Source: Sumerlaeia bacterium (lineage in GTDB: Bacteria; Sumerlaeota; Sumerlaeia; SLMS01; JAHLLQ01). From it: a DNA stretch of 13,460 nt. Of this stretch, positions 1-13,460 are shown piece by piece; the stretch's first letter is position 1; the number at the start of each line of letters is the position of its first letter. The notes under the pieces were generated by a model. That model made no database searches, was not told the origin of the DNA, and saw only the letters and a program-made list of their open reading frames with translations. Both the position numbers and the translations under genes were made by a program. The stretch covers positions 1 through 13,460 of the forward strand of contig JAVJSW010000047.1 in the NCBI GenBank assembly GCA_040219255.1. The letters run 5' to 3'.

Positions 1-154
1 CGCGGATTCCAGCCCGGGCTTCCAACCGTTCGGATACGCGGGGGGCCTGTACGATGGTGACACGGGGCTGGTGCACTTCGGGTTCCGGGAGTACAGCCCG
101 CGGACGGGGCGGTGGATGACGAAGGACCCGATTGGGTTTGATGGGGGGTGGAAT
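1..154 (+). repeat. Rhs core direct repeat, copy 1
   Basis: Aligns without gaps to 1658-1811; 103-154 is identical to 1760-1811 (52 bp). Confidence 0.95.
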
Positions 155-706
155 CATTACGGATATGCAAATGCCGTTCCAATGGATTTGATTGATCCAA
201 TAGGGTTAATTGTCGTTCATTTGGGAGCAGGTGGAAGTGGCTCATTTATTGTCGCAGGAGACCTCAATATCGGATTCGCTACTGATTTCTCTAACATAAG
301 TATTTTCATAAATAGTGGCGCCGGACTAGGTACTCCGGGTGGTTCAGTTGGGGCCGATTTTGGTGTATCGGCAGCAAAAGATGTAAAGGAATGGGCAGGA
401 TGGGGTGCCGAACTTAGCGTGGATGGGGGTGCCGGCTTAGGGGGCGGAGTCGGTGTGAATACCACACTCCCAAACATGTCCTTTTCTCGCCTCTTTAGTG
501 ATCCAATAGGTGCATTTGGAGGGCAACACAAAGTGGGTGGAGTTGTTCAAGGAGGAGCTGGAGCAGGACTTGGAATTGCGGGTACTATTGGCCATACGTG
601 GCTCCCACTCACATTGCGAACAGTTAATGGCCCCTCGTTTGGGCCGCCAATTCCTAAAGGAAATATTGTTCAAGGAGGGAGCGGGGGGCGTGGATCAGCG
701 AAATAG
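2..706 (+). CDS. Rhs-family protein, 5'-partial: end of Rhs core plus glycine-rich C-terminal toxin tip
   Basis: Frame is open from base 2 ([45 protein letters not shown]), which is an Rhs-associated core signature. It ends in [10 protein letters not shown] (DPxGL boundary at ~208), followed by a 165-aa variable tip. Confidence 0.93.
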
Positions 707-1175
707 GCAGTATCTTGAATGTGCTATTTACACAAGCAGCACAATTGCCGCATTTTCATTTGTAGTGCATGTGTTGCTTGGTTTTGGTGGCCTTCTAATA
801 ATTGCGTATGCATGTGCAATTGTGCTTACTGTTGTCGATATAATGTATTTGGTCTTGCATCACGCCTTTGTTTTAAGGAGCCGCGCCTTCTTGTCTCGAA
901 GGCGTCTATTGTTGCGTAAGTATGCATTGTTTATGCCTTTGGCTATTTGTTTTCTTGTTTTGGACAAGGTCTTGATGGAATTGGTAATGTGGAATGAGCC
1001 GAGAGAGCTTGCTATATTTACTTGGATAATAATGATGAATTGTGTCATGTTTGGATTGGCTAATTCCTCGTCGTACATAGTTCTTTCCAAGAAGAGTCGA
1101 AAAAAGAGATTCCCTTCCAAAATTGAAAGCTCTGAGGCTGAGACGTGGGGCTATTTAGTGGAGCCAAGAATGTAA
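690..1175 (+). CDS. Putative immunity protein, integral membrane (~4 hydrophobic segments, ~161 aa)
   Basis: Lies within ORF 510..1175. GTG at 690 follows AGGAGG (673-678) and overlaps the toxin 3' end. AT-rich, with hydrophobic runs ([38 protein letters not shown]; [13 protein letters not shown]; [18 protein letters not shown]). Start codon is inferred. Confidence 0.72.
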
Positions 1176-1202
1176 GAGTGTGTCTGAAGACCCAAATCAC
1201 TC

Positions 1203-2393
1203 TTGGCAGTCGAGTGGCGCGTAGGAACCTTCCCTCCGCGCTCTCTCAGACCCAGCGCGACAGCTCCCGTCATCCGGCCCCTCTCCTTGAGCAGCGCGAC
1301 CGAGGCGCAATACACCTACGACTCCCGCGGATTCCTGGAATCGGTGACGTTAGGGTCCGACACGATCGCGTACGTCCTCGACGGCCAGGGCCGTCGTGTG
1401 GCCCGCGAGGAGAATGGTGTTGTCAAAGACCGCTTCCTGTACAAAGACTTCATCAACCCGGTGGCGTGGCAGGACGCGGGCGACAGCGTCGCGTATTTCG
1501 TTTACGGCGGCCGGGGGCATGTGCCGGACTGGATGGTGAAGGGCGGGGCGTATTACCGCCTGGTGACCGATCACCTGGGCAGCGTGCGGCGCGTGGTGAA
1601 TGTGGAAACGGGAGTTGTGGTGCAGGAAATGAACTACGACGAATGGGGCAACGTGATCGCGGATTCCAGCCCAGGCTTTCAGCCGTTCGGGTACGCGGGG
1701 GGCCTATACGACGGGGCGACGGGGCTGGTGCATTTCGGGTTCCGTGAGTATAGCCCGCAGACGGGGCGGTGGATGACGAAGGACCCGATTGGGTTTGATG
1801 GGGGGTGGAATTGGTATGAGTATGTCGCTTCCTACCCAATAGGCAGTATTGATGTTTCCGGGCTACGATTCACGTACCCAGGTCCTGTCGAAGATGTGCG
1901 GGCGGGTGTATTGATAGCTGATATGCCGAGGGGAGAGCTTCCAAACGCAATAAATGATACTTTGCGGTATGTGACAAGAGTCGGTGGAACAAGAAGCTAC
2001 ACAGCCACATCGGGGTTTTATAGTAATGCGGACTTTGTCAACGGGAGAAGGAACATGTTAGATAGCATTCAAGGTGACATACAAGGCGGTATTACAAGTG
2101 GGACGGAGAAGTTTTGGGTGGATTATACTCGCTCGCCAGAATATTATGCTTTTGGTAATAGTCGAGTAATAGCAAATTGGAGTTTGGTAACAGGGCCCGA
2201 TGGGCGAGCGTACATAGACATAAATTACTCAATGACTGATGAGTTTACAGATCCATTTGATATAGGGGAGGCTCTTCGCGACCACGGGCCCACATGGTCA
2301 GCGGAGGATCACGCAATTATAAATGCCTTACAAGATCATTTTGGAAAGCCTTTTGATATGCGGCTCGACGGCTCCGAAAAACTGGTAAAATGA
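1203..2393 (+). CDS. Orphan Rhs module: truncated YD-repeat/Rhs core plus ~175-aa C-terminal toxin tip
   Basis: YD repeats start near 1300 (YTYDSRG, YVLDGQGRR, TDHLGSVR, YDEWGN). Core motif FGYAGGLYD...[10 protein letters not shown] is present; boundary PIGSIDVSGL ends at 1865. True start is uncertain and the module may be silent. Confidence 0.88.
   Translation: MAVEWRVGTFPPRSLRPSATAPVIRPLSLSSATEAQYTYDSRGFLESVTLGSDTIAYVLDGQGRRVAREENGVVKDRFLYKDFINPVAWQDAGDSVAYFVYGGRGHVPDWMVKGGAYYRLVTDHLGSVRRVVNVETGVVVQEMNYDEWGNVIADSSPGFQPFGYAGGLYDGATGLVHFGFREYSPQTGRWMTKDPIGFDGGWNWYEYVASYPIGSIDVSGLRFTYPGPVEDVRAGVLIADMPRGELPNAINDTLRYVTRVGGTRSYTATSGFYSNADFVNGRRNMLDSIQGDIQGGITSGTEKFWVDYTRSPEYYAFGNSRVIANWSLVTGPDGRAYIDINYSMTDEFTDPFDIGEALRDHGPTWSAEDHAIINALQDHFGKPFDMRLDGSEKLVK
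1658..1811 (+). repeat. Rhs core direct repeat, copy 2
   Basis: Aligns to 1-154; similarity ends abruptly after the ...GGWN codons. Confidence 0.95.
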
Positions 2394-2869
2394 AGAAGAG
2401 GTTATACTTCTTTCTGGGCACCGTGTCTTTTGTGTCAATAATAATGGTGGTTTGTTGTAAGTATATGTCTTACGAAATGCTTAGCAAAGACTGGCTGTAT
2501 TCCCTTGAATGCTCTGGGGGTTCAGTAGTGGAATTGGGAAATTATGCCGGAGATGAGTGGATATTTTACGACAAATATAGCAAGAAGGACGTGGTCCTTG
2601 GCTTGGCGGAGATCAGGTTGTATCCGCAAGGATACCTTGTTATAGGTCATCCAATGACCGGAAATGCGAGTGCGCCAGATGTTGAGTCGCATGTTGATTA
2701 CAGCAAGAATTTATACTTATTATTTGACAAAGAAAGCTGTGAATATAAAATACTACACAACGAGTCCGATCTTAATAAATTGGGAATTTCCTTGCAAAAT
2801 GAAAACTCAAACGATTACAGAATTGTAAGACCTTTTGGAACCAAGGAGCATAGGGATAGGAGTAAGTAG
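2390..2869 (+). CDS. Putative immunity protein with N-terminal membrane anchor or lipoprotein-like signal
   Basis: ATGA overlap with the toxin stop. MKKR followed by a hydrophobic stretch and VVCC, then a soluble domain. Low GC. Confidence 0.8.
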   Translation: MKKRLYFFLGTVSFVSIIMVVCCKYMSYEMLSKDWLYSLECSGGSVVELGNYAGDEWIFYDKYSKKDVVLGLAEIRLYPQGYLVIGHPMTGNASAPDVESHVDYSKNLYLLFDKESCEYKILHNESDLNKLGISLQNENSNDYRIVRPFGTKEHRDRSK

Positions 2870-3049
2870 TAGTTTGGTTGAATAGGGTATGGAGAGGCGC
2901 CGGTTGGTTAAGAATCTCGACGAAATCGAACTTCTGTGGTTTTCCAGTTCTACTACTAGTCCAAGAGCAATCGCCCTACGTCGCTTCCCGCTGATACTCC
3001 CGGATCAACCCGCCCAATTCCTATCGGCATTGAGCTGAAATTCCCCCTC

Positions 3050-4264
3050 CTAATACTCCACCCGAAACGTCGGGCTCTCCTCCGGCCGCTCTCCCCGCCG
3101 GTCGTACATTTTCGTCGTCGAGATATCCGCGTGCCCGAGCCAGGCCTGGACCCGGGCGATGTCGGCCCCGTGGTCGAGGGCGTTCGTCGCCGCCGTGGCC
3201 CGCAGGGCGTGGGGGCCGATGCCTGAGGCGGCGATGCCCGCCTCGCGGCAATAACGCGCGACGATTTCGCGGTGGACGCTGCCCGGATCGAGCCCCCGCG
3301 CGAGGCCTTCCCCCGTCGCGTTATTGACGACAGGCCGGAACAGCGCCCCGCCCCCGTCTTCGCCGTGCCCAGCCGCCTCCAGGTACTCGTGCACCAGGCG
3401 CCCCGTCGCCGGATGAAGCGGCACATAGCGCACCTTCGCCCCCTTGCCAAACACCCGCAAATGCGCCACCCCGCGCCGCGCTTCGATGTCGCCGACGCGC
3501 AGGCGGCAGAGCTCCTCGCGTCGCAGGCCGTGATAGAGCAGCATGGACAGGATCGCCCGGTCGCGCTTGGCCTTGAGCGAATCGCCCCGGGGCGCCGCCA
3601 GGAGCGCTCGCGCCTGATCGTCGCCCAGCGCCGGGGTTTTGCCTTCGCGCGACTCGCTGCGGGGGCGCTTGACGCCGTCCACCGGGTTGCCGGCGACGGC
3701 GTTGCATTCGCAGAGGTGATCGAAAAGCGACGCCAGCGCGGACAGCTTGCGCCGGATCGTGGCCCGCGCCAGGCCGCGCGCCTCCAGATCGCCGCGCCAG
3801 GCGATCACATGCGCCCGCGTGACCCGGACGAACTCGCCCGCCTGGCGGATGCCGACGAAGGCCATGAAGTCCTCGAGATCGCCCCGGTACGCGCGGCGCG
3901 TGCGGGGGTTGTCGATGTTGGCGAACCACTCGAGCTCGGGCGGCAGGGCGGCCAGCCCTTGGAACTCGGCCGCCGTCAGGTGCCGTCCTTCGGGGCCAGC
4001 AGGAAGAAAGGTGGGGTCGGGGGCCGGTGGCGAGGGAGAAGCGGAAGCGGGCGGGTTTTCGCTGGCGGAGGAAGACGGCGGGGTGGGGGAGAGGAGGGCG
4101 CGGTCTTCGCCGCTGGCACCGGAAGCCTCTCCGGACTCTCGCTCCAGACAATTGTCATCCGTGGATGCGGAAGGCCATCGGAGCGGCCGATGCTCGGAAG
4201 GAGAGTCCGCGAGAAAAGACGCATCCCTTTTGTCTTCTAACTGCCCAGCTTGACGATCACCCAT
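3050..4264 (-). CDS. Tyrosine recombinase/integrase (XerC/D-like, probable resolvase)
   Basis: Catalytic residues are all present: HGLRREEL (R), VFGKG (K), HALRAT (HxxR), LGHADISTTKMY (H, Y). N-terminal core-binding region NPRTRRAY...TIRRKLSAL. ATG at 4264 has AAGGAG upstream and is preferred over 4345, which overlaps the inverted repeat. Confidence 0.93.
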   Translation of the reverse strand: MGDRQAGQLEDKRDASFLADSPSEHRPLRWPSASTDDNCLERESGEASGASGEDRALLSPTPPSSSASENPPASASPSPPAPDPTFLPAGPEGRHLTAAEFQGLAALPPELEWFANIDNPRTRRAYRGDLEDFMAFVGIRQAGEFVRVTRAHVIAWRGDLEARGLARATIRRKLSALASLFDHLCECNAVAGNPVDGVKRPRSESREGKTPALGDDQARALLAAPRGDSLKAKRDRAILSMLLYHGLRREELCRLRVGDIEARRGVAHLRVFGKGAKVRYVPLHPATGRLVHEYLEAAGHGEDGGGALFRPVVNNATGEGLARGLDPGSVHREIVARYCREAGIAASGIGPHALRATAATNALDHGADIARVQAWLGHADISTTKMYDRRGERPEESPTFRVEY

Positions 4265-4344
4265 CACAGAACTCCTTTGTAGCTGACAAACAATAATCGC
4301 TGCCACCGAAAAGCGAAAGAGAACACAGTCCGCTTCTGCGCCCA

Positions 4345-4376
4345 TGACGCGCGATAATCCTTTTTATCGCGCGTCA
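4345..4376. other. Candidate tyrosine-recombinase core site, 13-6-13 perfect inverted repeat
   Basis: TGACGCGCGATAA-tccttt-TTATCGCGCGTCA, directly upstream of the recombinase gene. Confidence 0.75.
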
Positions 4377-4425
4377 ACTCCCCCGTCAACCCCAAGCGAA
4401 GAATTCACGGCATTCCACTATGCGC

Positions 4426-4453
4426 CTATCACATAAAGGACATTATGTTGCGC
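4426..4453. other. Second dif-like site (11-6-11 layout)
   Basis: ctatcACATAA-aggaca-TTATGTtgcgc; same ATAA-N6-TTAT centre as the first site. Confidence 0.6.
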
Positions 4454-4554
4454 AAAAGGGGAGTCGAGCCAAAAAGGGCTGTCCAGCCCGGAAAGGACAG
4501 GCGTAAGAAAAGGAAGCAATGAGCGAGGCTGTCAAATCGGCTAAAGCGGCGCAC

Positions 4555-4582
4555 TTGACCGCAGCGACCAGGATGCTATAAT
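4555..4582 (+). promoter_or_regulatory. Sigma70-type promoter of the TA operon
   Basis: TTGACC (4555-4560), 16-bp spacer, TATAAT (4577-4582) with an extended -10 TG; about 30 nt upstream of the antitoxin ATG. Confidence 0.75.
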
Positions 4583-4612
4583 CGGCCAGTGATAGTGAAA
4601 AGGAGCAAAACT

Positions 4613-4921
4613 ATGGAAAAGACCATCTCGACGCGGGACCTCCGCGCCACCGTCGGCGAAATTATCAACACCGTCCGCCTGCGCGGGGACACCTATCTCG
4701 TCGAACAGCGGGGCAAACCCCAGGCCGCCCTCGTGCCCCTCCACATCTACGAAGCCTACCAGAACAACCGCAAACGCCTGGTGGAACTCATGGACACGGT
4801 TGCGGAGCGCAACGCGGACCGGGATCCGGAGGAAATCGAAGCGGCCATCGACGAAGCCGTCGCCGAAGTGCGAGCCGGGCGCCGGGCGGCGAAGGCCCCG
4901 CAAACGCCCGAAGCGCGATGA
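4613..4921 (+). CDS. Type II antitoxin, Phd/YefM family
   Basis: MEKTISTRDLRATVGEIINTV...YLVEQRGKPQAALVP matches the Phd fold pattern. AAGGAG precedes the ATG at 4613; ATGA overlap with the PIN gene. Confidence 0.9.
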   Translation: MEKTISTRDLRATVGEIINTVRLRGDTYLVEQRGKPQAALVPLHIYEAYQNNRKRLVELMDTVAERNADRDPEEIEAAIDEAVAEVRAGRRAAKAPQTPEAR

Positions 4922-5352
4922 ATCCCCCGCGCGTCGTTCTCGACACCAACATCCTTGTCAGCACCCTTCTTCGACATCAAGGTCCGGCCGCCGAAGTCCG
5001 TCAGGTCTGGCGCCGTGGCGGCTTCGTGCTGTGCAGCTCCACCGTGTTGCTGGATGAACTCCAGGACGTTCTGTCACGCCCCTGGTTCGCGAAGGTTTCC
5101 CGGCTGGAGGCACCGGAAATCCGGGAATTCATCGACCGGCTCTCGCGCGAGGCGGTCCTGGTGGAGCCGGAAACGGTCGAAGCCGTCGTCCGCGACCCCG
5201 ACGACGATCACGTTCTGGCGGCAGCCATGGCGGCGAGGGCTGACATCATCGTGACCGGTGACAAAGACTTGCTCGTCCTGCAACCCGCTCACCGCGGGAT
5301 CGCCATTGTGACCCTGAAGACCTTTCTTGAGAGCATCGGCGAGGAAGGGTAG
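4918..5352 (+). CDS. PIN-domain toxin (VapC-like, PIN_3 type)
   Basis: RVVLDTNILVS...LDEL...RDPDDDHVLAAA...IIVTGDKDLL acidic PIN motifs. Confidence 0.93.
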   Translation: MNPPRVVLDTNILVSTLLRHQGPAAEVRQVWRRGGFVLCSSTVLLDELQDVLSRPWFAKVSRLEAPEIREFIDRLSREAVLVEPETVEAVVRDPDDDHVLAAAMAARADIIVTGDKDLLVLQPAHRGIAIVTLKTFLESIGEEG

Positions 5353-5365
5353 AAGAGGTTCTGAC

Positions 5366-5464
5366 ATGGCGCACACCCCCACCTTCGAGGGCTACGGCCC
5401 CTTCCTCGAAAGCCTCAAGGACCGCATCCGCACCGCCCGCGTGCGTGCGGCCCTCAGCGTCAAC
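5366..5464 (+). pseudogene. Truncated DUF1016/YhcG N-terminal fragment (33 codons)
   Basis: MAHTPTFEGYGPFLESLKDRIRTARVRAALSVN resembles the N-terminus of the full gene in this window (YGHLLGDIKARVRHAQTRASQAVQ). GAGG lies upstream; similarity is lost after 5464. Confidence 0.78.
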
Positions 5465-5651
5465 GGTGGTAAACTCCGCAGGAGGCAAACCCTTGACGCG
5501 AGGGCGAGACTCCGAGCGCCAGTCTGGGGCAAACGGCGAGGCGGCCCCCCAACGTGTTCCGGCGAGGGCGATGCCGTGGTCAGCAAGGGCGCTGTTGCGC
5601 CCCCACGCCGGGGAAGCCCGAAAACGGGTTAGGGAAGGAAAAGGGTCGGAG

Positions 5652-6224
5652 TCACTTGAGTGCGCGCCTGCGCTGTAGCTGCTGCTTCACGCCGGTAGCA
5701 TTCAGCCGCCACTCCAGCATCTCTGTGCTCACGCCGTAGGTGTGAGCGGCTGCGCCTCGTTCCACCTTAGACGCGGCGATCTTCATCGCGGCGGTGCGAG
5801 GCACCAAAAGCACGCCCGCCAACCAGTTCGCCTCATCCTCTTGCTCCTTATCGTAAGAATTGAGGAGCATGCACCCATCTTCGGAGACATCCACGCGAGC
5901 GGCAATGTGGCCGATGAGCAGGTGAGACAGTTCATGCATCGTGGAACTGCGCTGCCGTGGCTGCGAGTGCGACGAATTCAGGATGATGAGCTCACCCATC
6001 CCATCGAGACACAGAGTGATGGCTGACCAGCTCTTCGGATCATGCCGAAGCAACTGGTCGAGAGCATCCTGGGGAACCCCCGGGATGTCTTCCGGGCGAA
6101 GGATTCTAACCCCCAAGAACTCCGCCAGGGCATACGGGTCCAAAGGGTCGGCGTGATCCAGACCCAGTTCGTTGCGGTACTCTTCCGACAGCTTTTCGCA
6201 CCAGCTTTTGAATCCTCGCTTCAC
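5652..6224 (-). CDS. ImmA/IrrE family zinc metallopeptidase (CapP-like)
   Basis: RQRSSTMHELSHLLIGH (HExxH) and EQEDEANWLAGVLLVP, with a C-terminal HTH-like YGVSTEMLEWRL. Starts immediately after the HTH gene stop. Confidence 0.93.
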   Translation of the reverse strand: MKRGFKSWCEKLSEEYRNELGLDHADPLDPYALAEFLGVRILRPEDIPGVPQDALDQLLRHDPKSWSAITLCLDGMGELIILNSSHSQPRQRSSTMHELSHLLIGHIAARVDVSEDGCMLLNSYDKEQEDEANWLAGVLLVPRTAAMKIAASKVERGAAAHTYGVSTEMLEWRLNATGVKQQLQRRRALK

Positions 6225-6584
6225 TCACTCGACTCCGTTCGGATTGCAGGTGTTTCCTCTGGACACAGCTTCCGCCCGTTCTGCGGCGAGGATGAGTTGT
6301 GCGAGCGCTTGCGCTGTCGCAGGCTGGATCGAGCTTTCCTTGCGGAAGTGGACGGCTATTGGCGCCCGGGCTGTCGCGGGTTTGATGCCGAGGACTTCCC
6401 CAGGGTCGATGTCGAGCCATCCGCAGATTTTCCCGAAAGTCTGGAGGTCCGGTAGATTCCCTCGCTCGACTCGGGAAAGCGTGGCGGGGCTGATGCCGAT
6501 TTCCTGGGCTGCTTCGCGGATGCCAACGCTCCCGCGCTTCTCAACGATCTTCCGCCCTAGGGTTCGCAGGGTCAGTTTCGACAC
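6225..6584 (-). CDS. XRE-family HTH transcriptional regulator (CapH-like)
   Basis: GIREAAQEIGISPATLSRVERGNLPDLQTFGKICGWL. GTG at 6584 lies 9 nt after AAGGAG (119 aa). Confidence 0.92.
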   Translation of the reverse strand: MSKLTLRTLGRKIVEKRGSVGIREAAQEIGISPATLSRVERGNLPDLQTFGKICGWLDIDPGEVLGIKPATARAPIAVHFRKESSIQPATAQALAQLILAAERAEAVSRGNTCNPNGVE

Positions 6585-6721
6585 AGTTGTTCGCTCCTTG
6601 TGTCGCGTGGTTCCGCCCGGGAGGCTGTTTGGTGCAGAAGTCCTTGGGATTTTTGCCGGTCGTGTTGAAGCCATAAACCGCTGAAAAATAAGGATTTGTC
6701 CAACAGTGTCCCCCTTGTGTC

Positions 6722-6835
6722 GTTTCACGCGTAAGAATTCCGTTTGACTTGAGAGACGACTGGCACGAGAACCGCGAAGTCGTTCTCACCGGAGACGCCA
6801 CAGTTTCGTTTGTAAGACAAGGCGTCAAGTCGAAC
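6722..6835. promoter_or_regulatory. Array of candidate XRE operator boxes in the divergent promoter region
   Basis: GTTTCACGCGTAAGAA (6722), GTTTGACTTGAGAGAC (6742), GTTCTCACCGGAGAC (6782), GTTTCGTTTGTAAGAC (6803). Confidence 0.55.
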
Positions 6836-6865
6836 ATCCCACGCCTCCCGAGGAGGGCCTATCAA

Positions 6866-7933
6866 ATGCACCAGACTCCAGCTACAGCAACCGCTGCTCC
6901 GAAGTGGGCCGCACTGGTAAACGACCGTATCGTCTCCCTACCGCGCCAGCGCGTGCCGGCGACGGTGATCCGCCACCAGGCGGGCGTTCTCGCCGACCAT
7001 GCCCTGGTTCGCGACCACAACTCGCCGGACGATCCCTTCATCGAAGACAACGCTGCGCTCGATCTGGCGCATGGCAACGTCTTCTACAGCGTTCCCGCCT
7101 GTGAGGTGAAACCCCGCCCGCACTGTGCCAGCGAGCCAAAGCGGGCGTATTTCGTCGATGACCGCTGGGAACTCGCCAGTCCTGTTGCCCAAACCGGGCG
7201 CTCGATCCGCGAACTCTTCGGACTCAACGGCGATGTCGAATTGCTGCGTGACCTCGAATCCCCAAACGACACACCGGTCGGTCTCGACGATCCGGCAATC
7301 TTCGGCGACGGTCCGGTGTTCCGTACTCGCAAGGGCACCGCGACGCTGAAGATTTTCGTGAATAACCAGCCCTTCACCGAAGCGGACGGTGTTCGCCGGG
7401 AAATGACTGGCAAGCAGATCGCCGCCCTGGTCGGGATGACCCCCAATGCCGCCGAGATCTCCCGTGTGGAAGGTTCGGTCCAGATTGCCGGTGGTGATAC
7501 GGTCAAGATCGAGAACTGTCAGCACTTCCGCGTCATCAAGAAGTGCGTGATCGCGGGCTTCGAGTCGTCCCGTGTCGAACGTGAACTCGCGCGTCTCCGA
7601 GAGGGGGGCGCGCGGGTCACTTTGGTCGCCAACCCAGATGGCGTCATTTTTCACGATCTGCCCGCCCTCGACGGAACGACGGTCGACGTCCTCGTCAGCG
7701 TGCCATCGGGCTACCCCGGGGGCATGTTGGACAATGCCTTCCTGCCCAAGGATTCTCCGCTGCTGAACGTGCTTCTTGGTGGTGTCCAGCACGCCATCTT
7801 CGCGAATGGTCGCGAGTGGATTCAGAAGAGCCTGCACCCGCACAATGCGCCCGGGAACCAGTGGGACAAGAACAGGCACGGCTTTCACACCTACTACGGG
7901 GAGATGCTCGCATGGGTATCGAAGCGCCAGTGA
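6866..7933 (+). CDS. Multi-ubiquitin-domain (3x beta-grasp) protein fused to a prokaryotic E2/UBC-like domain (BubAB-like), 355 aa
   Basis: AGGAGG at 6851-6856, ATG at 6866. Three internal repeats (LVNDR...RDHNSPDD...GNVFYS; FVDDR...TGRSIRELFG...RDLESPND...GPVFRT; IFVNNQ...MTGKQIAALVG...QHFRV) end in VIAG. They are followed by an E2-like VDVLVSVPSGYP...LDNAFL...GREWIQKSLH...W...FHTYY. Confidence 0.85.
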   Translation: MHQTPATATAAPKWAALVNDRIVSLPRQRVPATVIRHQAGVLADHALVRDHNSPDDPFIEDNAALDLAHGNVFYSVPACEVKPRPHCASEPKRAYFVDDRWELASPVAQTGRSIRELFGLNGDVELLRDLESPNDTPVGLDDPAIFGDGPVFRTRKGTATLKIFVNNQPFTEADGVRREMTGKQIAALVGMTPNAAEISRVEGSVQIAGGDTVKIENCQHFRVIKKCVIAGFESSRVERELARLREGGARVTLVANPDGVIFHDLPALDGTTVDVLVSVPSGYPGGMLDNAFLPKDSPLLNVLLGGVQHAIFANGREWIQKSLHPHNAPGNQWDKNRHGFHTYYGEMLAWVSKRQ

Positions 7934-9441
7934 ACATCGACCTGGACTCGGAAAGGTACGCGCTCCTTCGCATCTCGGGCTCTGCCCGCCGCGAACTGGA
8001 AAAACTCGTGTTCAGCAGGCATCCCGAACGCGAATGGGGGACCTTCTTCATGTTCGGCTTTCGCCGTACTCCGTGGGGCTGTGCGCTCAGCTACGTTTCC
8101 GCTGCTCCACCACTGCCTGGCGATCTCGACCGAAACACCCACGTCGTCAAGATTCGCAGCGGCTACACTTTCCGCGCGATGGGGTTGCTGGATACCAGCC
8201 CCCTGGGCATCGGCGTCGTCCATTCCCATCCCCAAGGCCGGGGAACGATCCCAAGTCCATTGGACGACAAGATGGACCGGTACTTCGGAACCGAACTCTT
8301 CCTGGGCTACGGCGTGGGCAATGAACGCCCCTATTCCAGTCTGATCCTGAATCGTCGCGAAGACGGTACGTTGGAGTTTTCCGGTCGGGTCAGGTTCGAC
8401 GGGCGTTGGATAGCGGTGCGTGAATTCCTCATCGTCGGCGACGCCCTGGAACGCATTTCATCACACCAAAATTCCGGATTCTTCCAAAGGAACGAAGGTC
8501 TTTCCGAGTCAACCACCGCTAGGCTGGAAAGTCTCCTGGGCTCGACCTCTCGCGATCGCCTACAACGTGCCGTTGTTGGCATTGTGGGATGCAGCGGGAC
8601 CGGATCGCCTGCCGTCGAAGCCCTCGCCCGGGCCGGTGTGGGCGAGCTCGTACTGGTCGATCCCCAACGCCTCAGCCCGTCAAACCTCGAGCGTGTTCAC
8701 GGCAGCACGCTCGCTGACGTTTCCGCACTCGAACCGCCGTACAAGGTGGCGTGCATGGCTCGGATGATCCGGGCGATAAATCCCGACTGCCGCGTCAGAA
8801 GCATCGTGGGCAATGTTCTCGATGACGAAGTGCGCGATGAGTTCCTGCGCTGCGATTTGATCCTCGGCTGCTCAGACACCCATCATGCTCGTGCCGCACT
8901 TGGCGACCTGTGCGCCCTTTATCTGGTCCCTTCGCTGGACGTTGGCGTTCAGATGGATGGGCGCGGGGGGAAAGTCTCCAGCCAAACTGCCGAAGTGCTC
9001 AAGCTCTCGCCGGACCTGCCGTGCCCCTTCTGCCACGGACGCATTTCTCCTGTCGCACTAAGCCAGGAGTTGATGAGTGAGGAAGAGCGAGTACAGCGCC
9101 AGCAAGCCGCACAGGAAGCACGCGAGCAGGGTGGAAACCCTGGCGTGTACTGGGCGGATGAGCCTCAACTGCACACAGTCGGGTATCTCACAACCGTTCT
9201 GGGGGCGATGGCAGCAGGCTACGCAATTGGCTGGATGACGGGGTCCTTCGGGATGCCGGGGGATCGGTTTCAGTTCGATCTGAGCAAGCCGAGCTTCGCC
9301 TTCGCACTGGCTCCGGGATCACGAAAGCCCGACTGCACCTGCGGGATGCTGCAAGGCTACAGCGATCAAGGCCGGGCCGACTTCAGCATTTCAAGACCGG
9401 GGCATTGGTCGGCGCCGGTAATCATCGAAGCCTCCCATTGA
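7912..9441 (+). CDS. JAB/JAMM peptidase fused to ThiF/E1-like adenylyltransferase (BubCD-like)
   Basis: JAB: EWGTF...VVHSHPQGRGTIPSPLD (E...HxH-x7-S-x2-D). E1: VGIVGCSGTGS, LVDPQRLSPSNLERVHG, YKV, GCSD, and candidate Zn ligands CPFC and CTC. Start is ATG 7912 (GGGGAG upstream) or GTG 7930 (GTGA overlap). Confidence 0.92.
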   Translation: MGIEAPVNIDLDSERYALLRISGSARRELEKLVFSRHPEREWGTFFMFGFRRTPWGCALSYVSAAPPLPGDLDRNTHVVKIRSGYTFRAMGLLDTSPLGIGVVHSHPQGRGTIPSPLDDKMDRYFGTELFLGYGVGNERPYSSLILNRREDGTLEFSGRVRFDGRWIAVREFLIVGDALERISSHQNSGFFQRNEGLSESTTARLESLLGSTSRDRLQRAVVGIVGCSGTGSPAVEALARAGVGELVLVDPQRLSPSNLERVHGSTLADVSALEPPYKVACMARMIRAINPDCRVRSIVGNVLDDEVRDEFLRCDLILGCSDTHHARAALGDLCALYLVPSLDVGVQMDGRGGKVSSQTAEVLKLSPDLPCPFCHGRISPVALSQELMSEEERVQRQQAAQEAREQGGNPGVYWADEPQLHTVGYLTTVLGAMAAGYAIGWMTGSFGMPGDRFQFDLSKPSFAFALAPGSRKPDCTCGMLQGYSDQGRADFSISRPGHWSAPVIIEASH

Positions 9442-9707
9442 AGCAGGAGAAAATTGGGCGAAAACGGCCCGCCAAAGGCCCAGGAGCCCCCGGCAATGGT
9501 GACGATCAACAAACGCGCAACCATCCCGCCGCCGGACCCAGCCCTGGCGCAGAAACAGGAAGTCGCTAATTAGCAGCACCCGGGTGTCTCAAATGATTGA
9601 CAGGTTCCGTTATACAAGTTTTTGCACAATTGACCCTCATCCCTTTTTCGTACCAGCTCCAGGGAGTTCGCAAGAGCTTCGTTAAACGCCAGATTATCGG
9701 CACCTCC

Positions 9708-10415
9708 TCACCGCCCCCCATGCTCCGCCAGCAGATTCCGCATCCACGCCGGTCCCCGGTGGCGCCAGCGGGGGTCTTGGGCTTTGGGGTGGCCGTCAGG
9801 TCCGGTTGACCAAGTGAGGGCGACTTCATCGTAGCTCTCGTCCTCGCCACGAGCCCGGCTTTCCGGAGGATAGTGCTCGACGATGACGAGGTTTTCACCT
9901 GCAAGTCCAAGCTCCCGCGCGGTGCTCGCTGCCAGTTCCTCGATGGCGTGTGTCACACTTCGCCCCTGGTTGTCGGGGCGTTCGGTGAAAATCGCCAGCA
10001 AGCGCCCGTCTGCCATGGGGTAGAGGGTCCGGTCGCAATGCGCCTGTCCCCCCTGATAGGTCATGCGACGCGGGGCGCCGGCCTCAAAGTTCGCCGTCCG
10101 TTCCCGTTCTCTTTGCCGCTGAACCCGGTGGAAAACCATCAGGGGCAGCGTCAGCTTGTTCTTTCCCACGCGCACTTCGACCATCTCGCCGCCTGGCGGC
10201 ACTTCCACCCGAAATCGCAGGGTGTCTTTGGCGGGATCACCGTCGGGGCCGCGCCCCAGGCGAATGGCTTGGATGAGCCGCGACCCGTCGGCAAACTCCC
10301 GCAAAGCAATGTCGCGCACCGAAACCTGGTCACGGCCACAGAGGATGACTTCTTCGACAAAGCTATTGGCGGCTTCGATCTCCGATGGAGCCGGGGCGTT
10401 TTCGGGGTTCGTCAT
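9708..10415 (-). CDS. Hypothetical protein, probably co-transcribed with the DUF1016 gene
   Basis: Starts 3 nt after the DUF1016 stop with GGAG upstream. Globular-looking C-terminal region (FTERPDNQGRSVTHAIEELA...IVEHYP...SYDEVALTW...PRW). Confidence 0.8.
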   Translation of the reverse strand: MTNPENAPAPSEIEAANSFVEEVILCGRDQVSVRDIALREFADGSRLIQAIRLGRGPDGDPAKDTLRFRVEVPPGGEMVEVRVGKNKLTLPLMVFHRVQRQRERERTANFEAGAPRRMTYQGGQAHCDRTLYPMADGRLLAIFTERPDNQGRSVTHAIEELAASTARELGLAGENLVIVEHYPPESRARGEDESYDEVALTWSTGPDGHPKAQDPRWRHRGPAWMRNLLAEHGGR

Positions 10416-10418
10416 GGG

Positions 10419-11513
10419 TTAGTCCTCCAACTCCTCCGACAATTCCGCCTCGATCTCCGCGATCGAGGGCAGGCTCGAGGCCAGGTCTTGGGGAAGAGCT
10501 GTTGTCAGCTCGTAGTCCGAAACGCCGATGGGTTTGTGGATGTCGCGCAGGGCGTACTCGGCCAGGACGCGGTCTTTCGTCTGGCAGAGGATCAGGCCGA
10601 TGGTGGGCTGGTCCTGATCGTGGCGCAGGAGGTCGTCCACGGCCGAGCAGTAGAAGTTCATCTTGCCGGCGTACTCGGGGCGGAATTTACCGCGCTTCAG
10701 CTCGATCACCACGAAGCAGCGCAGCTTCAGGTGATAGAACAGCAGGTCGATGTAGAATTCTTCCTCGCCAACCGTCAGCGGGTACTGGCGGCCGACGAAG
10801 GCGAAACCCTGCCCCAGCTCGAGGAGGAACTTCTCCAGGTGGCGCACCAGGCCGCTTTCCAGCTCCCGCTCGCGAAACGGCTCGTCGAGCGTCAGAAAAT
10901 CGAAGACGTAGGGGTCTTTGAGCATTTCTTCCGCCAGCGCCGACTGGGGCGGGGGCAGGCTTTGGTCGAAGTTGGTGACGGCGGCGCCCTGGCGCTCGTG
11001 GGCACGGGCCTTGATCATCGCCCCCAGCGTATCGCGGGACCAGCCTTGGGCGAGGGTCTGCCGGGCGTACCAGAGGCGGGTGGCGGGGTCGCCGGCCCGT
11101 TGCAGGAGCAGCAGATTGTGCGCCCAGGGAATGCAGGCGAACACCGAATCGCTGGCTGCAAGTTCCGTGTCTTCAGTAGGCGATTGCGGATTCTCCAATT
11201 GTGCAACGGGCCGTTGCACAATTGGAAAGAGGCCTGGGTGGGCCTCGCGAAACTGAACCATCGCGTAGAGATTGCGCTTCGAAAACCCCTTCACCTCCGG
11301 CAGTTCGTTCTTCAGATCGCTCGCCAACCGGGCGAGGAACCCGGCGCCCCAGCCCGCCTCGTCGCGGCGTTCGGCGATCAGGCCGCCCACTTCCCAATAG
11401 AGGCGCACCAGTTCGCTCTGCACGGCCTGGCTGGCCCGGGTCTGGGCGTGGCGCACCCGTGCCTTGATGTCCCCGAGAAGATGACCGTAGGCCGCGAGGT
11501 CGTCTTTCGTCAT
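10419..11513 (-). CDS. DUF1016/YhcG family PD-(D/E)XK nuclease-domain protein
   Basis: LYWEVG, KGFSKRNL, IPWAHN, LKDPYVFDFL, FLLELGQGFAFVGRQY, YIDLLFYHLKLRCFVVIELK, YAGKMNFY, PTIGLILC, PIGVSDY: characteristic family motifs. Confidence 0.95.
   Translation of the reverse strand: MTKDDLAAYGHLLGDIKARVRHAQTRASQAVQSELVRLYWEVGGLIAERRDEAGWGAGFLARLASDLKNELPEVKGFSKRNLYAMVQFREAHPGLFPIVQRPVAQLENPQSPTEDTELAASDSVFACIPWAHNLLLLQRAGDPATRLWYARQTLAQGWSRDTLGAMIKARAHERQGAAVTNFDQSLPPPQSALAEEMLKDPYVFDFLTLDEPFRERELESGLVRHLEKFLLELGQGFAFVGRQYPLTVGEEEFYIDLLFYHLKLRCFVVIELKRGKFRPEYAGKMNFYCSAVDDLLRHDQDQPTIGLILCQTKDRVLAEYALRDIHKPIGVSDYELTTALPQDLASSLPSIAEIEAELSEELED
11194..11226. repeat. 33-bp palindrome (16-1-16) inside the DUF1016 gene
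   Basis: TCCAATTGTGCAACGG-g-CCGTTGCACAATTGGA, perfect arms. Confidence 0.9.
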
Positions 11514-11580
11514 CGGGAAAGCCCTTCCACATTGAGAAAAAAGAGCTTACTATGGGGCACTGGCGGAAGCAACCCCCACC

Positions 11581-11618
11581 GCTTGGGGTCCGTGGCATTG
11601 GAGGCATGGACCCCAAGC
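11581..11618. repeat. Inverted repeat/hairpin upstream of the DUF1016 gene
   Basis: GCTTGGGGTCC (11581-11591) pairs with GGACCCCAAGC (11608-11618). Confidence 0.7.
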
Positions 11619-12158
11619 GCAAAGCCGACTTCCGTGGTTCAGCGCCCGAAAATTTTCTTTCAAGATTTTTGCGAATCGATTTTTGGTGTTTAAAAATATG
11701 ATTGTTGCAGGATGACTTCCTCCATTTCGCGCACAGCCAATTTCAATTATTGAGATTACAAAGACTTGCCCTTTCTCATAAGCGGAAAAACATTGCATTG
11801 CATGCAATGCCCGGGAAAGGCCGTAGGTACCAGTTGGTTCGACAGCTTAGTAATTGGCGAACAGGAAAAATTGTGGGTCCTCAAAAATTCTAGTTGCGTA
11901 CACACTAGTGAAGCAGTTTCTTATTACCATTGCTCATCCCTAGGCTTCCCTGTGAAGCGAGGTTGATGGCGCTTCCATTTCCTGCACAGCGGAAACTCCT
12001 CGGATTTTCCACATCACATTTGACGACCGAACGGGCGGATTACTCATTCTACACTCCTTAATGCAAATAGTTGCAGTCAAGTGGTTGTAATTCTGGGTAA
12101 CTCCCGCTGAAACCTTCAACCCCCAACCTCGATCAGCATGTCTCAGGAGGCATCACTC

Positions 12159-13460
12159 ATGCGAAACCAACTCCTTCCCATCGCCCTCGCGGCCTGCTCT
12201 CTTTCCCTCGCCCCCCAGGCCCACGCCGCTTGCACCGCGTCCACCCTCACGCCCCTCGCCGATGCCTCGGGCTGTGACTCCTGTGGCGGCTTCCTCCTCC
12301 CCGGAAGTCTCCACGACGACCCCAACACCACCTACTACATCAACTCCGACCTCCCAGAGCAGTTCCAAGGCACCGGCATCCTCTACTCCACCGAGGACCA
12401 ACTCCCCCCCAACGGCACCTCCAGCTCCTCGCTCCGCACCCAGACCAAAAACGGCTTCACCTACATCGACGACAATTTTGACATCTTCCTCTTCCACATC
12501 GAAGGCCAAGGCGGCAGCCAGGGCAAACGCATGGTCGTTTACGCCAAAAACGTCGGCTCTAACACCGTCACCGTCGATCCCAAGCAAGTCATGGTCACCG
12601 ACGGCATCATCCTCGCCGTTCACGAAATGGAAAATGACCTGGCCGAGAAGGTCATGAACGATGATTGGGACACCCCCGTCTCCAGCATGAACATCGCGCC
12701 GGGCCAAGGCAACGTCATCGCCTACTCCAAACGCTTCGACATGTCGAGCAGCGGCACCGACAAGAGCCAGAACATCAACTGCTTTGGCCGCGTCCGCGCC
12801 GATGTTTCGGGCTCCAACCCCAAACTCGAAGTCTACGTCATGGCCATCGACGACGCCGCGATTTCGGAGAATCAGTCCCGCGCCGAAGCTCTGCTCAACT
12901 CCGGCGCCACCAATGATGAAAGCGTCATCGACCTCAACACCGCCCCGGGGTCCTGCGAAACGCGCCGCGCTCTCGGTGTCTTCCCCAGCAAGCAGTGGCG
13001 TAACGACGCTATCACGGTGGACGTCAACGAACTCGGCATGGACGGCGTCAACTTCCGCATGGCCCTCTCCGAGGTCCAAAGCGCCGGTTGCTCAGCCGGC
13101 CGCCAGACCGCTGACGCCCTCCTCTATCCCGGCTTCGCGCCCGCGGATAACGTCGGCAACTACATGATGGATTACTATCTCAAGCTCAAGTTCACGAACC
13201 TGAACTCCGCCAACCCCCGCACCTTCGACCTCAACTTCGGCAAAGACACGGCCGACATCGGCCTCGCCTGGCGCGTTGTCACCACCAACTCCCAGCCCTC
13301 CGACTCGACCATCGACAACGCCACGCTGCGCATCGACTGGGCCGGGCCGAAGCAGTCCACCAATCACGTCTCCTTCTTGGAGAACGATGGCGGCGTCATC
13401 ACCCTTGAGCCCTGCGAAGAAAAATGGGTCGGCATCCACTTCCAGATCGTCGGCAACTCC
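12159..13460 (+). CDS. Secreted protein, DUF3370-like, 3'-partial (at least 434 aa)
   Basis: AGGAGG at 12145-12150, ATG at 12159. Signal peptide MRNQLLPIALAACSLSLAPQAHA-A. Frame is open to the window end with strong C bias at third codon positions. Motifs LPGSL...INSDLPE...GILYST...FDIFLFHI...GNYMMDYYLKLKFTN recall DUF3370; the family call is tentative. Confidence 0.85.
   Translation, partial: MRNQLLPIALAACSLSLAPQAHAACTASTLTPLADASGCDSCGGFLLPGSLHDDPNTTYYINSDLPEQFQGTGILYSTEDQLPPNGTSSSSLRTQTKNGFTYIDDNFDIFLFHIEGQGGSQGKRMVVYAKNVGSNTVTVDPKQVMVTDGIILAVHEMENDLAEKVMNDDWDTPVSSMNIAPGQGNVIAYSKRFDMSSSGTDKSQNINCFGRVRADVSGSNPKLEVYVMAIDDAAISENQSRAEALLNSGATNDESVIDLNTAPGSCETRRALGVFPSKQWRNDAITVDVNELGMDGVNFRMALSEVQSAGCSAGRQTADALLYPGFAPADNVGNYMMDYYLKLKFTNLNSANPRTFDLNFGKDTADIGLAWRVVTTNSQPSDSTIDNATLRIDWAGPKQSTNHVSFLENDGGVITLEPCEEKWVGIHFQIVGNS

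What the first reader, a model, noticed from the sequence alone, without database searches (positions are those of the whole stretch)
7559..7933. E2-like domain has no cysteine; Ser322 in WIQKSLH is the candidate nucleophile
Seen: there is no Cys in the 124 residues after VIAG. WIQKSLH corresponds to the WQRWSRH-type motif I recall for prokaryotic E2 family E. Established (recalled): Bub pathways were reported to use oxyester rather than thioester intermediates. Inference: Ser (7829-7831) with the nearby His carries the Ubl, in a divergent SLH variant.
Basis: partly seen in the sequence, partly recalled or inferred. Interest (0 to 1): 0.7.

Follow-up and report, generated by a model that had tools for sequence, protein, structure and literature searches.

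The report
Cysteine-free serine E2 (BubB-type) domain
The stretch encodes the E2-like end of a bacterial ubiquitin-like conjugation protein that has a conserved serine where normal E2 enzymes have cysteine, a mechanism already described for "Bub" systems, here in a divergent branch that lacks one of the usual partner genes.

Summary
Residues 232-355 of the protein encoded at 6866-7933 (+) contain no cysteine, and Ser322 (AGC, 7829-7831) sits in WIQKSLH.

The gene is a BubAB-type fusion: three beta-grasp Ubl units, an invariant Gly231, then an E2 domain. It is followed by a JAB-E1 fusion (BubCD, 7912-9441) and preceded by a divergent HTH plus M78 peptidase pair that resembles CapH/CapP.

Ser322 and His324 are invariant in 55/55 and 36/36 aligned relatives and in 58/58 related loci. 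Asp289 is invariant or nearly so. No cysteine column is conserved.

The AlphaFold model (pLDDT 94) matches Citrobacter BubB (9eae_C; TM 0.67) best, then canonical E2s. Profile alignments put D289/S322/H324 in register with the D..S-R-H of Citrobacter and of a classical BubAB. In Citrobacter, S333A/H335A abolishes conjugation (PMC11601596).

What differs is the branch:
- about 19% identity to Citrobacter BubB;
- below the Pfam cut-off;
- an S-[YILV]-H-P signature;
- no BubE/DUF6527 gene;
- a different E1 crossover loop.

Residue-level superposition could not be done.

The parts
6866..7933 (+). bubAB-type gene: Ubl(x3)-E2 fusion, 355 aa
   Evidence: ORF and start. 220 homologues at E<=0.001. Full-length AF2 model has pLDDT 90. 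Foldseek top hits are the multi-ubiquitin proteins 9cd2 and 9d5a (3.3e-10), plus BubB 9eae_C (9.8e-4).
6866..7558 (+). BubA part: three beta-grasp units (about residues 13-77, 93-156, 162-225), ending in VIAG with Gly231 (7556-7558), the predicted JAB cleavage and conjugation end
   Evidence: DSSP of the model. Gly231 is invariant in 55/55. Citrobacter BubAB is cleaved after the equivalent G229 (PMC11601596).
7559..7933 (+). BubB-type E2 domain (residues 232-355), cysteine-free
   Evidence: 0 Cys. AF2 pLDDT 94, pTM 0.88. Foldseek 9eae_C TM 0.67/0.65, rmsd 2.9 A over 124 columns. hhalign to a classical BubAB gives prob 87%, E 3.7e-6.
7829..7831 (+). Ser322 (AGC), candidate nucleophile
   Evidence: Invariant in 55/55, 36/36 and 58/58. 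Aligned with the Ser of Citrobacter YQRWSRH and of classical QWSRH.
7835..7837 (+). His324 (CAC), partner of Ser322 (S-x-H)
   Evidence: Invariant in 55/55, 36/36 and 58/58. In register with Citrobacter H335.
7730..7732 (+). Asp289 (GAC) in GYPGGMLDNAF, third conserved active-site residue
   Evidence: 54/55 (one Asn), 36/36, and 56/58 loci. Aligned with the Asp of GYPVNMLDMF in Citrobacter BubB. The D-to-S spacing is 33 residues here and 34 in Citrobacter (D299/S333).
7912..9441 (+). bubCD-type gene: JAB/JAMM peptidase-E1 fusion, 509 aa, overlapping bubAB by 22 nt
   Evidence: ThiF 4e-31. Prok-JAB weak, 0.0047. Citrobacter BubCD is the best PDB match: 1e-18 for the single sequence, 4e-44 for the profile. 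Conserved residues are E41, H104, H106, S115, D118, R261, D322. It lies next to BubAB in 60 of 64 related loci.
9148..9150 (+). Tyr413 of BubCD: candidate E1 tyrosine, by conservation only
   Evidence: YW is invariant in 28/28 members of the branch. It is not aligned to Citrobacter Y370.
6225..6728 (-). HTH (Cro/C1-type) regulator, divergent from bubAB; CapH-like
   Evidence: HTH_3 2.3e-7. The position and its pairing with the M78 gene also fit. No PADLOC capH hit.
5652..6224 (-). M78/IrrE-type metallopeptidase; CapP-like
   Evidence: Peptidase_M78 1.2e-13. The best PADLOC hit is capP, 7.7e-8. An M78-like gene cluster lies upstream in 21 loci, counting the window.

Best explanation
The stretch encodes the E2 domain (BubB) of a BubAB pre-protein from a Bub-type (formerly '6E') ubiquitination-like operon.

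Proposed course:
1. The JAB domain of the neighbouring BubCD cuts BubAB after Gly231. This frees a triple-beta-grasp Ubl with a C-terminal glycine and a 124-residue E2.
2. The E1 domain of BubCD adenylates Gly231.
3. The Ubl is passed, probably through a tyrosine of the E1 crossover region, to the hydroxyl of Ser322. Ser322 is activated by His324 (S-x-H) and Asp289, and an oxyester forms.
4. The E2 then transfers the Ubl to a lysine of a target.

Expression is probably held off by the upstream HTH repressor until the M78 peptidase responds to DNA damage or phage.

Shown here: the architecture, the absence of Cys, the invariance of D/S/H, the fold, and the register with Citrobacter BubB. Taken from the literature: the Citrobacter S333A/H335A and Y370F data. 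Inferred: every chemical step in this protein, the role of Tyr413, and the regulation.
For: - No Cys in residues 232-355 and no conserved Cys column.
- S322 and H324 are invariant and D289 is invariant or nearly so, in alignments whose mean column identity is 53% (A1) and 34% (A2). The same holds in 58 loci.
- The AF2 model (pLDDT 94) matches Citrobacter BubB 9eae_C best: prob 1.00, TM 0.67/0.65, rmsd 2.9 A. Canonical E2s follow at TMq 0.53-0.60.
- The profile-to-PDB alignment puts D, S and H in register with Citrobacter BubB.
- hhalign to a classical BubAB, itself a Prok-E2_E hit at 1.2e-32, gives prob 87%, E 3.7e-6, with QKSLH on QWSRH.
- The partner BubCD has intact JAB and adenylation residues, and Gly231 is invariant.
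- PMC11601596 (Results read): S333 of Citrobacter BubB lies at the structural position of the E2 cysteine. S333, H335 and D299 are invariant in Type I. The S333A/H335A mutant abolishes conjugation in vitro and in cells.
Against: - Sequence links to the characterised protein are weak. phmmer of the window protein finds no BubB in the PDB.
- The profile hit to BubB has E 0.28, and a flagellin chain scores about the same at 0.38.
- The Foldseek E-value is 1.4e-3, and no match reaches E<=0.001.
- Pfam is below its cut-off.
- No coordinates were available, so the Ser322 side chain was never superposed on a catalytic Cys or on S333.
- In the sections of the paper I read, the serine role rests on a double mutant (S333A/H335A) and on structures. 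I saw no direct detection of an oxyester adduct described.
- A second serine, S297, is also invariant within this branch (55/55; 34/36).
- The E1 tyrosine could not be aligned.
- BubE is absent.
Confidence: 0.85

Rival explanations
1. The domain is a catalytically dead, RWD/UEV-like E2 fold. It only binds the Ubl or the E1, and conjugation, if any, is done by the E1 alone.
For: It has no Cys and no HPN motif. Iyer et al. 2006 (PMC1779556, passages) classed the Cys-less E2-like domains of row 6e in exactly this way.
Against: An invariant S-x-H plus Asp across alignments of 34-53% mean identity is not what a mere binding scaffold predicts. In the Citrobacter homologue, mutating the equivalent Ser and His abolishes conjugation (PMC11601596).
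Confidence: 0.05
2. The domain is an active E2, but the nucleophile is another residue: Ser297 in LPKDSPLL, or His324 itself. Ser322 would then play a supporting role.
For: S297 is invariant in 55/55 and present in 34/36, and it aligns with a Ser in the classical BubAB of G005.
Against: In the alignment to Citrobacter BubB this position falls in a gap. The paper lists only S333, H335 and D299 as invariant in Type I. Two of 36 branch members have C or N there.
Confidence: 0.05
3. Ser322 is the nucleophile, but in this branch it takes the Ubl straight from the E1-bound adenylate, or from an E1 residue other than the classical tyrosine. There would then be no Tyr oxyester step.
For: The crossover region differs from classical BubCD. 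It carries CxxC plus CxC, conserved in 28/28 branch members. The likely Y370-equivalent column of the classical protein is not Tyr in this branch. The profile alignment to Citrobacter BubCD stops before Y370.
Against: A YW pair (Y413-W414) is invariant in 28/28 members a few residues downstream in the same loop. Loop alignments are unreliable. The four Cys have the pattern of the structural zinc site of ThiF/MoeB-type E1s (my knowledge, not tested).
Confidence: 0.15

Closest known systems
Citrobacter sp. RHBSTW-00271 BubB (E2 part of BubAB), Type I Bub operon; PDB 9EAE chain C, 9EAV (Ye, Gong, Chambers, Corbett; PMC11601596)
   Same: - Ubl(x3)-Gly-E2 fusion of nearly the same size: 355 aa with G231 here, 362 aa with G229 there.
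- Cys-free E2.
- Asp...Ser-x-His in register.
- Best structural match.
- JAB-E1 partner.
- A CapH/CapP-type regulator pair, as in 31% of Bub operons.
   Different: - About 19-20% identity and no phmmer hit.
- Motif W-x-x-x-S-[YILV]-H-P-[HY] instead of Y-Q-R-W-S-R-H.
- No BubE/DUF6527 gene.
- The E1 crossover loop has Cys pairs and a differently placed Tyr.
Classical Type I Bub operon found in genome G005 (L066: BubAB 217 aa, BubCD 465 aa, BubE 132 aa)
   Same: The E2 domains align with prob 87%, E 3.7e-6, and D/S/H are in register. The BubCD architecture is the same.
   Different: - The classical protein scores 1.2e-32 on Prok-E2_E, against 0.0016 for the window protein.
- It has one Ubl unit.
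- It has BubE directly downstream.
- BubCD is 25% identical to the window's.
- The same genome also carries a copy of the window-type pair (L062), so the two kinds coexist.
Canonical UBC-fold E2 enzymes (UBE2N, UbcH7, Cdc34)
   Same: UBC-like fold: TMq 0.53-0.60. In the model the nucleophile lies at the end of the last strand, before the long loop that leads into helix 2.
   Different: Ser replaces Cys, and there is no HPN motif upstream. By the paper's description of BubB, the two C-terminal helices are also lacking. The model here has a single C-terminal helix.
RWD/UEV-type inactive E2 folds (the 2006 reading of row 6e, PMC1779556)
   Same: E2-like fold without cysteine.
   Different: The invariant Ser/His/Asp and the Citrobacter mutant data argue for catalysis.

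Membership tests
BubB / Pfam PF14462 Prok-E2_E (serine E2 of Bub systems) | Match to the family profile above the curated cut-off | tested here: not met
   Window protein: E 0.0016, 18.6 bits against a cut-off of 25; 0 families at E<=0.001. However, 49 of 55 aligned homologues match at E<=0.001. hhalign of the branch profile to a bona fide member gives prob 87%, E 3.7e-6.
BubB / Pfam PF14462 Prok-E2_E (serine E2 of Bub systems) | Diverged UBC fold resembling solved BubB | tested here: met
   9eae_C is the top Foldseek hit: TM 0.67/0.65, rmsd 2.9 A, 124 columns. It is found again with the full-length model.
BubB / Pfam PF14462 Prok-E2_E (serine E2 of Bub systems) | No catalytic Cys; invariant Ser with His two residues on and an upstream Asp (Type I signature: S333/H335/D299) | tested here: met
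BubB / Pfam PF14462 Prok-E2_E (serine E2 of Bub systems) | Ser occupies the 3-D position of the E2 catalytic Cys | not testable with these tools
   No model coordinates are returned. The point is inferred through alignment to S333 and the paper's statement.
BubB / Pfam PF14462 Prok-E2_E (serine E2 of Bub systems) | Ubl~Ser oxyester intermediate; loss of conjugation on Ser/His mutation | not testable with these tools
   Needs biochemistry.
Type I Bub operon (6E.1) as defined by Ye et al. | Ubl-E2 fusion (BubAB) with a conserved Gly at the junction | tested here: met
   (G231 in 55/55).
Type I Bub operon (6E.1) as defined by Ye et al. | JAB/JAMM-E1 fusion (BubCD) adjacent | tested here: met
   Adjacent in 60 of 64 related loci.
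Type I Bub operon (6E.1) as defined by Ye et al. | E1 crossover loop without Cys and with an invariant Tyr (Y370) | tested here: inconclusive
   An invariant Y413-W414 exists in 28/28, but it is not aligned to Y370. The loop also contains a conserved CxxC.
Type I Bub operon (6E.1) as defined by Ye et al. | BubE (DUF6527 serine protease) gene in the operon ('all Bub operons encode BubE') | tested here: not met
   - No PF20137 match in the own genome, which is 92% complete.
- No candidate ORF within the contig.
- No conserved third gene beside 60 related pairs.
- phmmer with a real BubE finds nothing significant.
- 14 of 15 genomes holding related loci have no DUF6527, and the one hit belongs to a separate classical operon.
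- Caveat: the published set was drawn from DUF6527-containing operons (PMC11601603 Methods passage), so BubE is partly a selection criterion.
Type I Bub operon (6E.1) as defined by Ye et al. | Association with CapH+CapP or CapW regulators (frequent, not obligatory) | tested here: met
   HTH_3 and Peptidase_M78 genes lie divergently upstream. The best PADLOC hit of the peptidase is capP, 7.7e-8. The HTH has no capH hit.
Canonical E2 (UBC/UQ_con) | Catalytic Cys and HPN motif | tested here: not met
   No Cys. No UQ_con Pfam hit. Only the fold is similar.

The most novel reading that the evidence does not exclude
The window represents a distinct, widespread two-gene 'minimal Bub' branch. It occurs in Verrucomicrobiota, Planctomycetota, Acidobacteriota and other phyla (64 related loci, 60 of them with the BubAB-BubCD pair), and has no BubE deconjugase. 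Its serine-E2 signature is its own (S-[YILV]-H-P-[HY], plus a second invariant Ser297). Its E1 keeps a Cys4 site and carries an invariant YW in the crossover region. If so, either the JAB domain does both maturation and deconjugation, or conjugation is irreversible, and the E1-to-E2 hand-off may differ from the Citrobacter paradigm.
Probability: 0.55. Interest if true: 0.5.

Novelty: new variant of a known kind. Interest (0 to 1): 0.35.

Why it matters
Serine-based E2 chemistry has so far been reported from one laboratory, on Citrobacter (Type I) and E. coli (Type II) systems. This protein shares only about a fifth of its residues with the Citrobacter E2, yet it keeps exactly the Asp/Ser/His set. 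That is independent comparative support that these three residues are the functional core.

The branch also shows that BubE, described as universal in Bub operons, is dispensable. The published catalogue was drawn from DUF6527-containing operons, so it probably missed this group.

The branch offers a simpler two-protein system for testing how an oxyester cascade works and what it modifies. No Bub operon has yet been shown to protect against phage (PMC11601596 Discussion; PMC13373217 passage).

Tried and rejected
- phmmer of the whole protein against PDB sequences gave only chance-level hits (chorismate mutase 0.11, MSS4) and no BubB.
- The profile of the E2 alignment against the PDB put BubB on top, but at E 0.28, with a flagellin chain at 0.38. 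It is used only for its register, not as statistical evidence.
- NCBIfam and PADLOC have no model that matches BubAB.
- The search for an operator-like inverted repeat (6690-6880) found nothing. The sigma-70 promoter scan of 6600-9800 also found none.
- Candidate BubE ORFs with C-x-C-x-C motifs in related loci were antisense or noise frames. The one marginal phmmer hit (L020, E 0.012) is an HTH_30 protein, not DUF6527.
- The 235-aa ORF at 9708-10415 was considered as a BubE substitute. It was rejected because it is absent from all 64 related loci and has only a weak SduA/DUF4263 similarity.
- Complex prediction was not used. An E1-E2 pair with solved homologues would pass by likeness and would not have changed my odds.
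- Supplementary Table S1 of the Bub papers (the list of 544 operons) could not be seen, so I cannot say whether any member of this branch is listed there.

Full report
**Observation.** The longest frame over the finding runs 6749-7933 (+). The likely start is the ATG at 6866, behind a GAGGAGG box. VIAG is residues 228-231. The 124 residues after it (7559-7930) hold no cysteine. WIQKSLH begins at residue 318, and Ser322 is AGC at 7829-7831. The description is therefore exact. A Cys-free stretch of 124 residues is not unlikely in itself (0.15-0.37 for ordinary Cys frequencies). The significance lies in what the domain is and in what is conserved.

**What the gene is.** A search of the 5.8-billion-protein collection gave 220 homologues at E<=0.001. 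The best three are 80-86% identical and the rest are 58% or less. Many carry precomputed Prok-E2_E (PF14462) and Multiubiquitin (PF14452) hits. I aligned 54 of the 120 listed homologues with the window protein (A1). Of the 55 sequences, 49 match PF14462 and 39 match PF14452 at E<=0.001. The window protein itself reaches only E 0.0016, 18.6 bits against a cut-off of 25.

The full-length AlphaFold2 model (pLDDT 90) shows three beta-grasp units (about 13-77, 93-156, 162-225), a short linker containing Gly231, and a compact alpha/beta domain. Its best PDB matches are the multi-ubiquitin (BubA) proteins of E. coli ZDHYS365 and Citrobacter (E 3.3e-10), together with Citrobacter BubB.

**The neighbours.** The next gene (7912-9441, overlapping by 22 nt) is a JAB-E1 fusion. 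It scores ThiF 4e-31 and has a weak Prok-JAB hit. Citrobacter BubCD is its best PDB relative, at 1e-18 for the single sequence and 4e-44 for a 29-sequence profile. The JAMM residues (E41, H104, H106, S115, D118) and the adenylation residues (R261, aligned to Citrobacter R227, and D322) are conserved in 54 sequences.

Upstream and divergent lie an HTH_3 gene (6225-6728) and an M78/IrrE-type peptidase gene (5652-6224). The best PADLOC match of the peptidase is capP. This layout is that of a Type I Bub operon with CapH/CapP-type control, as described by Ye et al. (PMC11601596; outline, Results, Discussion and figure legends read).

**The E2 domain and Ser322.**
- An exhaustive phmmer of the 124 residues against 1.84 billion cluster representatives found 59 proteins at E<=0.001.
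- I aligned the window domain with 28 of those 59. The 31 dropped were fragments, partial matches and the weak tail. I added 7 homologues from the first search, giving 36 rows (A2) with 34% mean column identity.
- The invariant columns are P284, D289, G305, S322, H324, P325, G339, Y343 and W350.
- In A1, S322 and H324 are 55/55 and D289 is 54/55.
- Across 64 related genomic loci, 58 have a readable E2 domain. Ser and His are 58/58, and Asp is 56/58. Of the other two, one locus has a degraded copy with Thr and one does not cover the position. The other 6 loci gave no E2 match.
- The residue between Ser and His is free: Y 48, I 8, L 1, V 1. 'SLH' is therefore a rare but unremarkable spelling.
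- No Cys column exceeds 11/55, and about half of the sequences have no Cys at all in the domain.

**Link to the characterised enzyme.**
- The AF2 model of the domain (pLDDT 94, pTM 0.88; helix, four-strand meander, a further hairpin ending at Ser322, a long loop, and one C-terminal helix) has Citrobacter BubB (9eae_C) as its best PDB match. The values are prob 1.00, TM 0.67/0.65, rmsd 2.9 A over 124 columns, and 19% identity. Canonical E2s (UBE2N, UbcH7, Cdc34) follow at TMq 0.53-0.60.
- The statistics are modest. The Foldseek E-value is 1.4e-3 and no hit is below 1e-3.
- phmmer of the single sequence misses BubB. The A2 profile finds it first but at E 0.28, next to a flagellin chain at 0.38.
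- That alignment nevertheless pairs GYP..mlD with GYPVNMLD, and S-x-H with the S-R-H of YQRWSRH.
- A stronger bridge came from genome G005. This genome carries both a window-type pair (L062) and a textbook Type I operon: BubAB of 217 aa (Prok-E2_E 1.2e-32), BubCD, and BubE/DUF6527 (1.7e-22).
- hhalign of A2 against that classical BubAB gives prob 87%, E 3.7e-6 over 109 columns, with LDNAF on IDMVY and QKSLH on QWSRH.
- The paper states that S333 of Citrobacter BubB occupies the structural position of the E2 cysteine. It also states that S333, H335 and D299 are invariant in Type I, and that S333A/H335A abolishes conjugation in vitro and in cells.
- By transitivity, Ser322/His324/Asp289 are the equivalents. 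The D-to-S spacing is 33 residues here and 34 there.
- I could not superpose side chains, because no coordinates are returned.

**Mechanism.** The most likely course has four steps.
1. The JAB domain cleaves after Gly231.
2. The E1 adenylates the new C-terminus.
3. The Ubl is transferred to Ser322 as an oxyester, with His324 and Asp289 assisting.
4. The Ubl is transferred on to a lysine.

Only the anatomy is shown here; the chemistry is inferred from Citrobacter. In the sections I read, the Citrobacter evidence consists of mutants and structures, and I saw no trapped oxyester described.

**Rivals.**
- The 2006 reading of these Cys-less domains as inactive RWD-like folds (PMC1779556, passages) is contradicted by the invariance and by the mutant data.
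- Another nucleophile is possible. Ser297 is invariant within the branch, but it falls in a gap against Citrobacter.
- The hand-off from the E1 may be direct or different.

**What is different.**
- BubE, said to be present in all Bub operons, is missing.
  - There is no PF20137 match in the window's genome, which is 92% complete.
  - There is no candidate on the contig.
  - There is no conserved third gene beside 60 BubAB-BubCD pairs.
  - phmmer with a real BubE found nothing.
  - DUF6527 is absent from 14 of 15 genomes holding related loci, and the single hit is the separate classical operon.
- The published catalogue was taken from DUF6527-containing operons (PMC11601603, Methods passage). 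BubE-less systems would therefore have been missed. I could not see Table S1.
- The E1 crossover region also differs. It has a conserved CxxC/CxC set and an invariant YW (Y413-W414, 28/28). The likely Y370-equivalent of the classical BubCD aligns about nine columns upstream.
- Literature searches turned up only the two Corbett-laboratory Bub preprints and the CapK/CapS paper (held both as a preprint and as the EMBO J article), together with the 2006 survey and other unrelated listings. None of the passages I read describes a BubE-less group.

**Verdict.** The mechanism is already known, so the finding itself is of modest interest. The protein belongs to a divergent, BubE-less variant of Type I Bub. 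That variant is worth a note and offers a simple test system.

Noticed in passing
window 7912-9441 (BubCD), residues 371-477: The E1 crossover region carries a conserved CxxC (C371/C374) and CxC (C475/C477), plus an invariant Y413-W414. The classical BubCD of G005 lacks these Cys, and its probable catalytic Tyr aligns about 9 columns upstream. The E1 nucleophile of this branch is unresolved.
   Followed up: partly
window 1-13460 and genome G000: No DUF6527/BubE gene was found anywhere in the 92%-complete genome or beside 60 related BubAB-BubCD pairs. This branch is a two-gene system.
   Followed up: yes
L066 (G005:C1:688000-700000) 5894-8354 (-): A classical Type I Bub operon (BubAB 217 aa with one Ubl, BubCD 465 aa, BubE 132 aa) lies in a genome that also has the window-type pair (L062). 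It is flanked by a subtilase (S8) gene and a ResIII/SNF2-type helicase gene.
   Followed up: partly
window 9708-10415 (-) and 10419-11513 (-): There is a YhcG/DUF1016 PD-(D/E)xK nuclease (PADLOC candidate system PDC-S02, 2.7e-141). Next to it is a 235-aa ORF with only a weak SduA/DUF4263 (Shedu) similarity (6e-5), absent from all related loci. This may be a separate defence gene pair.
   Followed up: no
window 2-706, 1203-2393, 2390-2869 (+); 3050-4345 (-); 4589-5352 (+): Two RHS/YD-shell C-terminal fragments are followed by a small ORF (possible toxin tip and immunity cassettes). There is also a tyrosine integrase and a Phd/YefM-PIN toxin-antitoxin pair. The Bub genes therefore sit in a mobile or defence island.
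   Followed up: no
L061, L062, L063 and proteins P0131-P0135, P0142, P0145, P0146, P0149, P0153: Some relatives appear as stand-alone E2 proteins of about 126-140 aa, or as ORFs containing only the E2 part beside BubCD. The Ubl-E2 fusion may therefore be split in part of the branch. Start-codon calls were not checked.
   Followed up: no
related loci L003, L050, L023 and others, upstream of bubAB: Many related loci have, in place of the HTH/M78 pair, other conserved divergent upstream genes. These form clusters of 6-10 loci, and their sequences looked to me, by eye only, like sigma-factor or other regulatory proteins. They were not annotated.
   Followed up: no
window 7922-7924 (Lys353): The E2 domain ends ...VSKRQ, with a Lys two residues from the C-terminus. 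In Citrobacter BubB the only Lys (K358, four residues from the end) is the site of in-vitro auto-conjugation. The window domain has four Lys.
   Followed up: no
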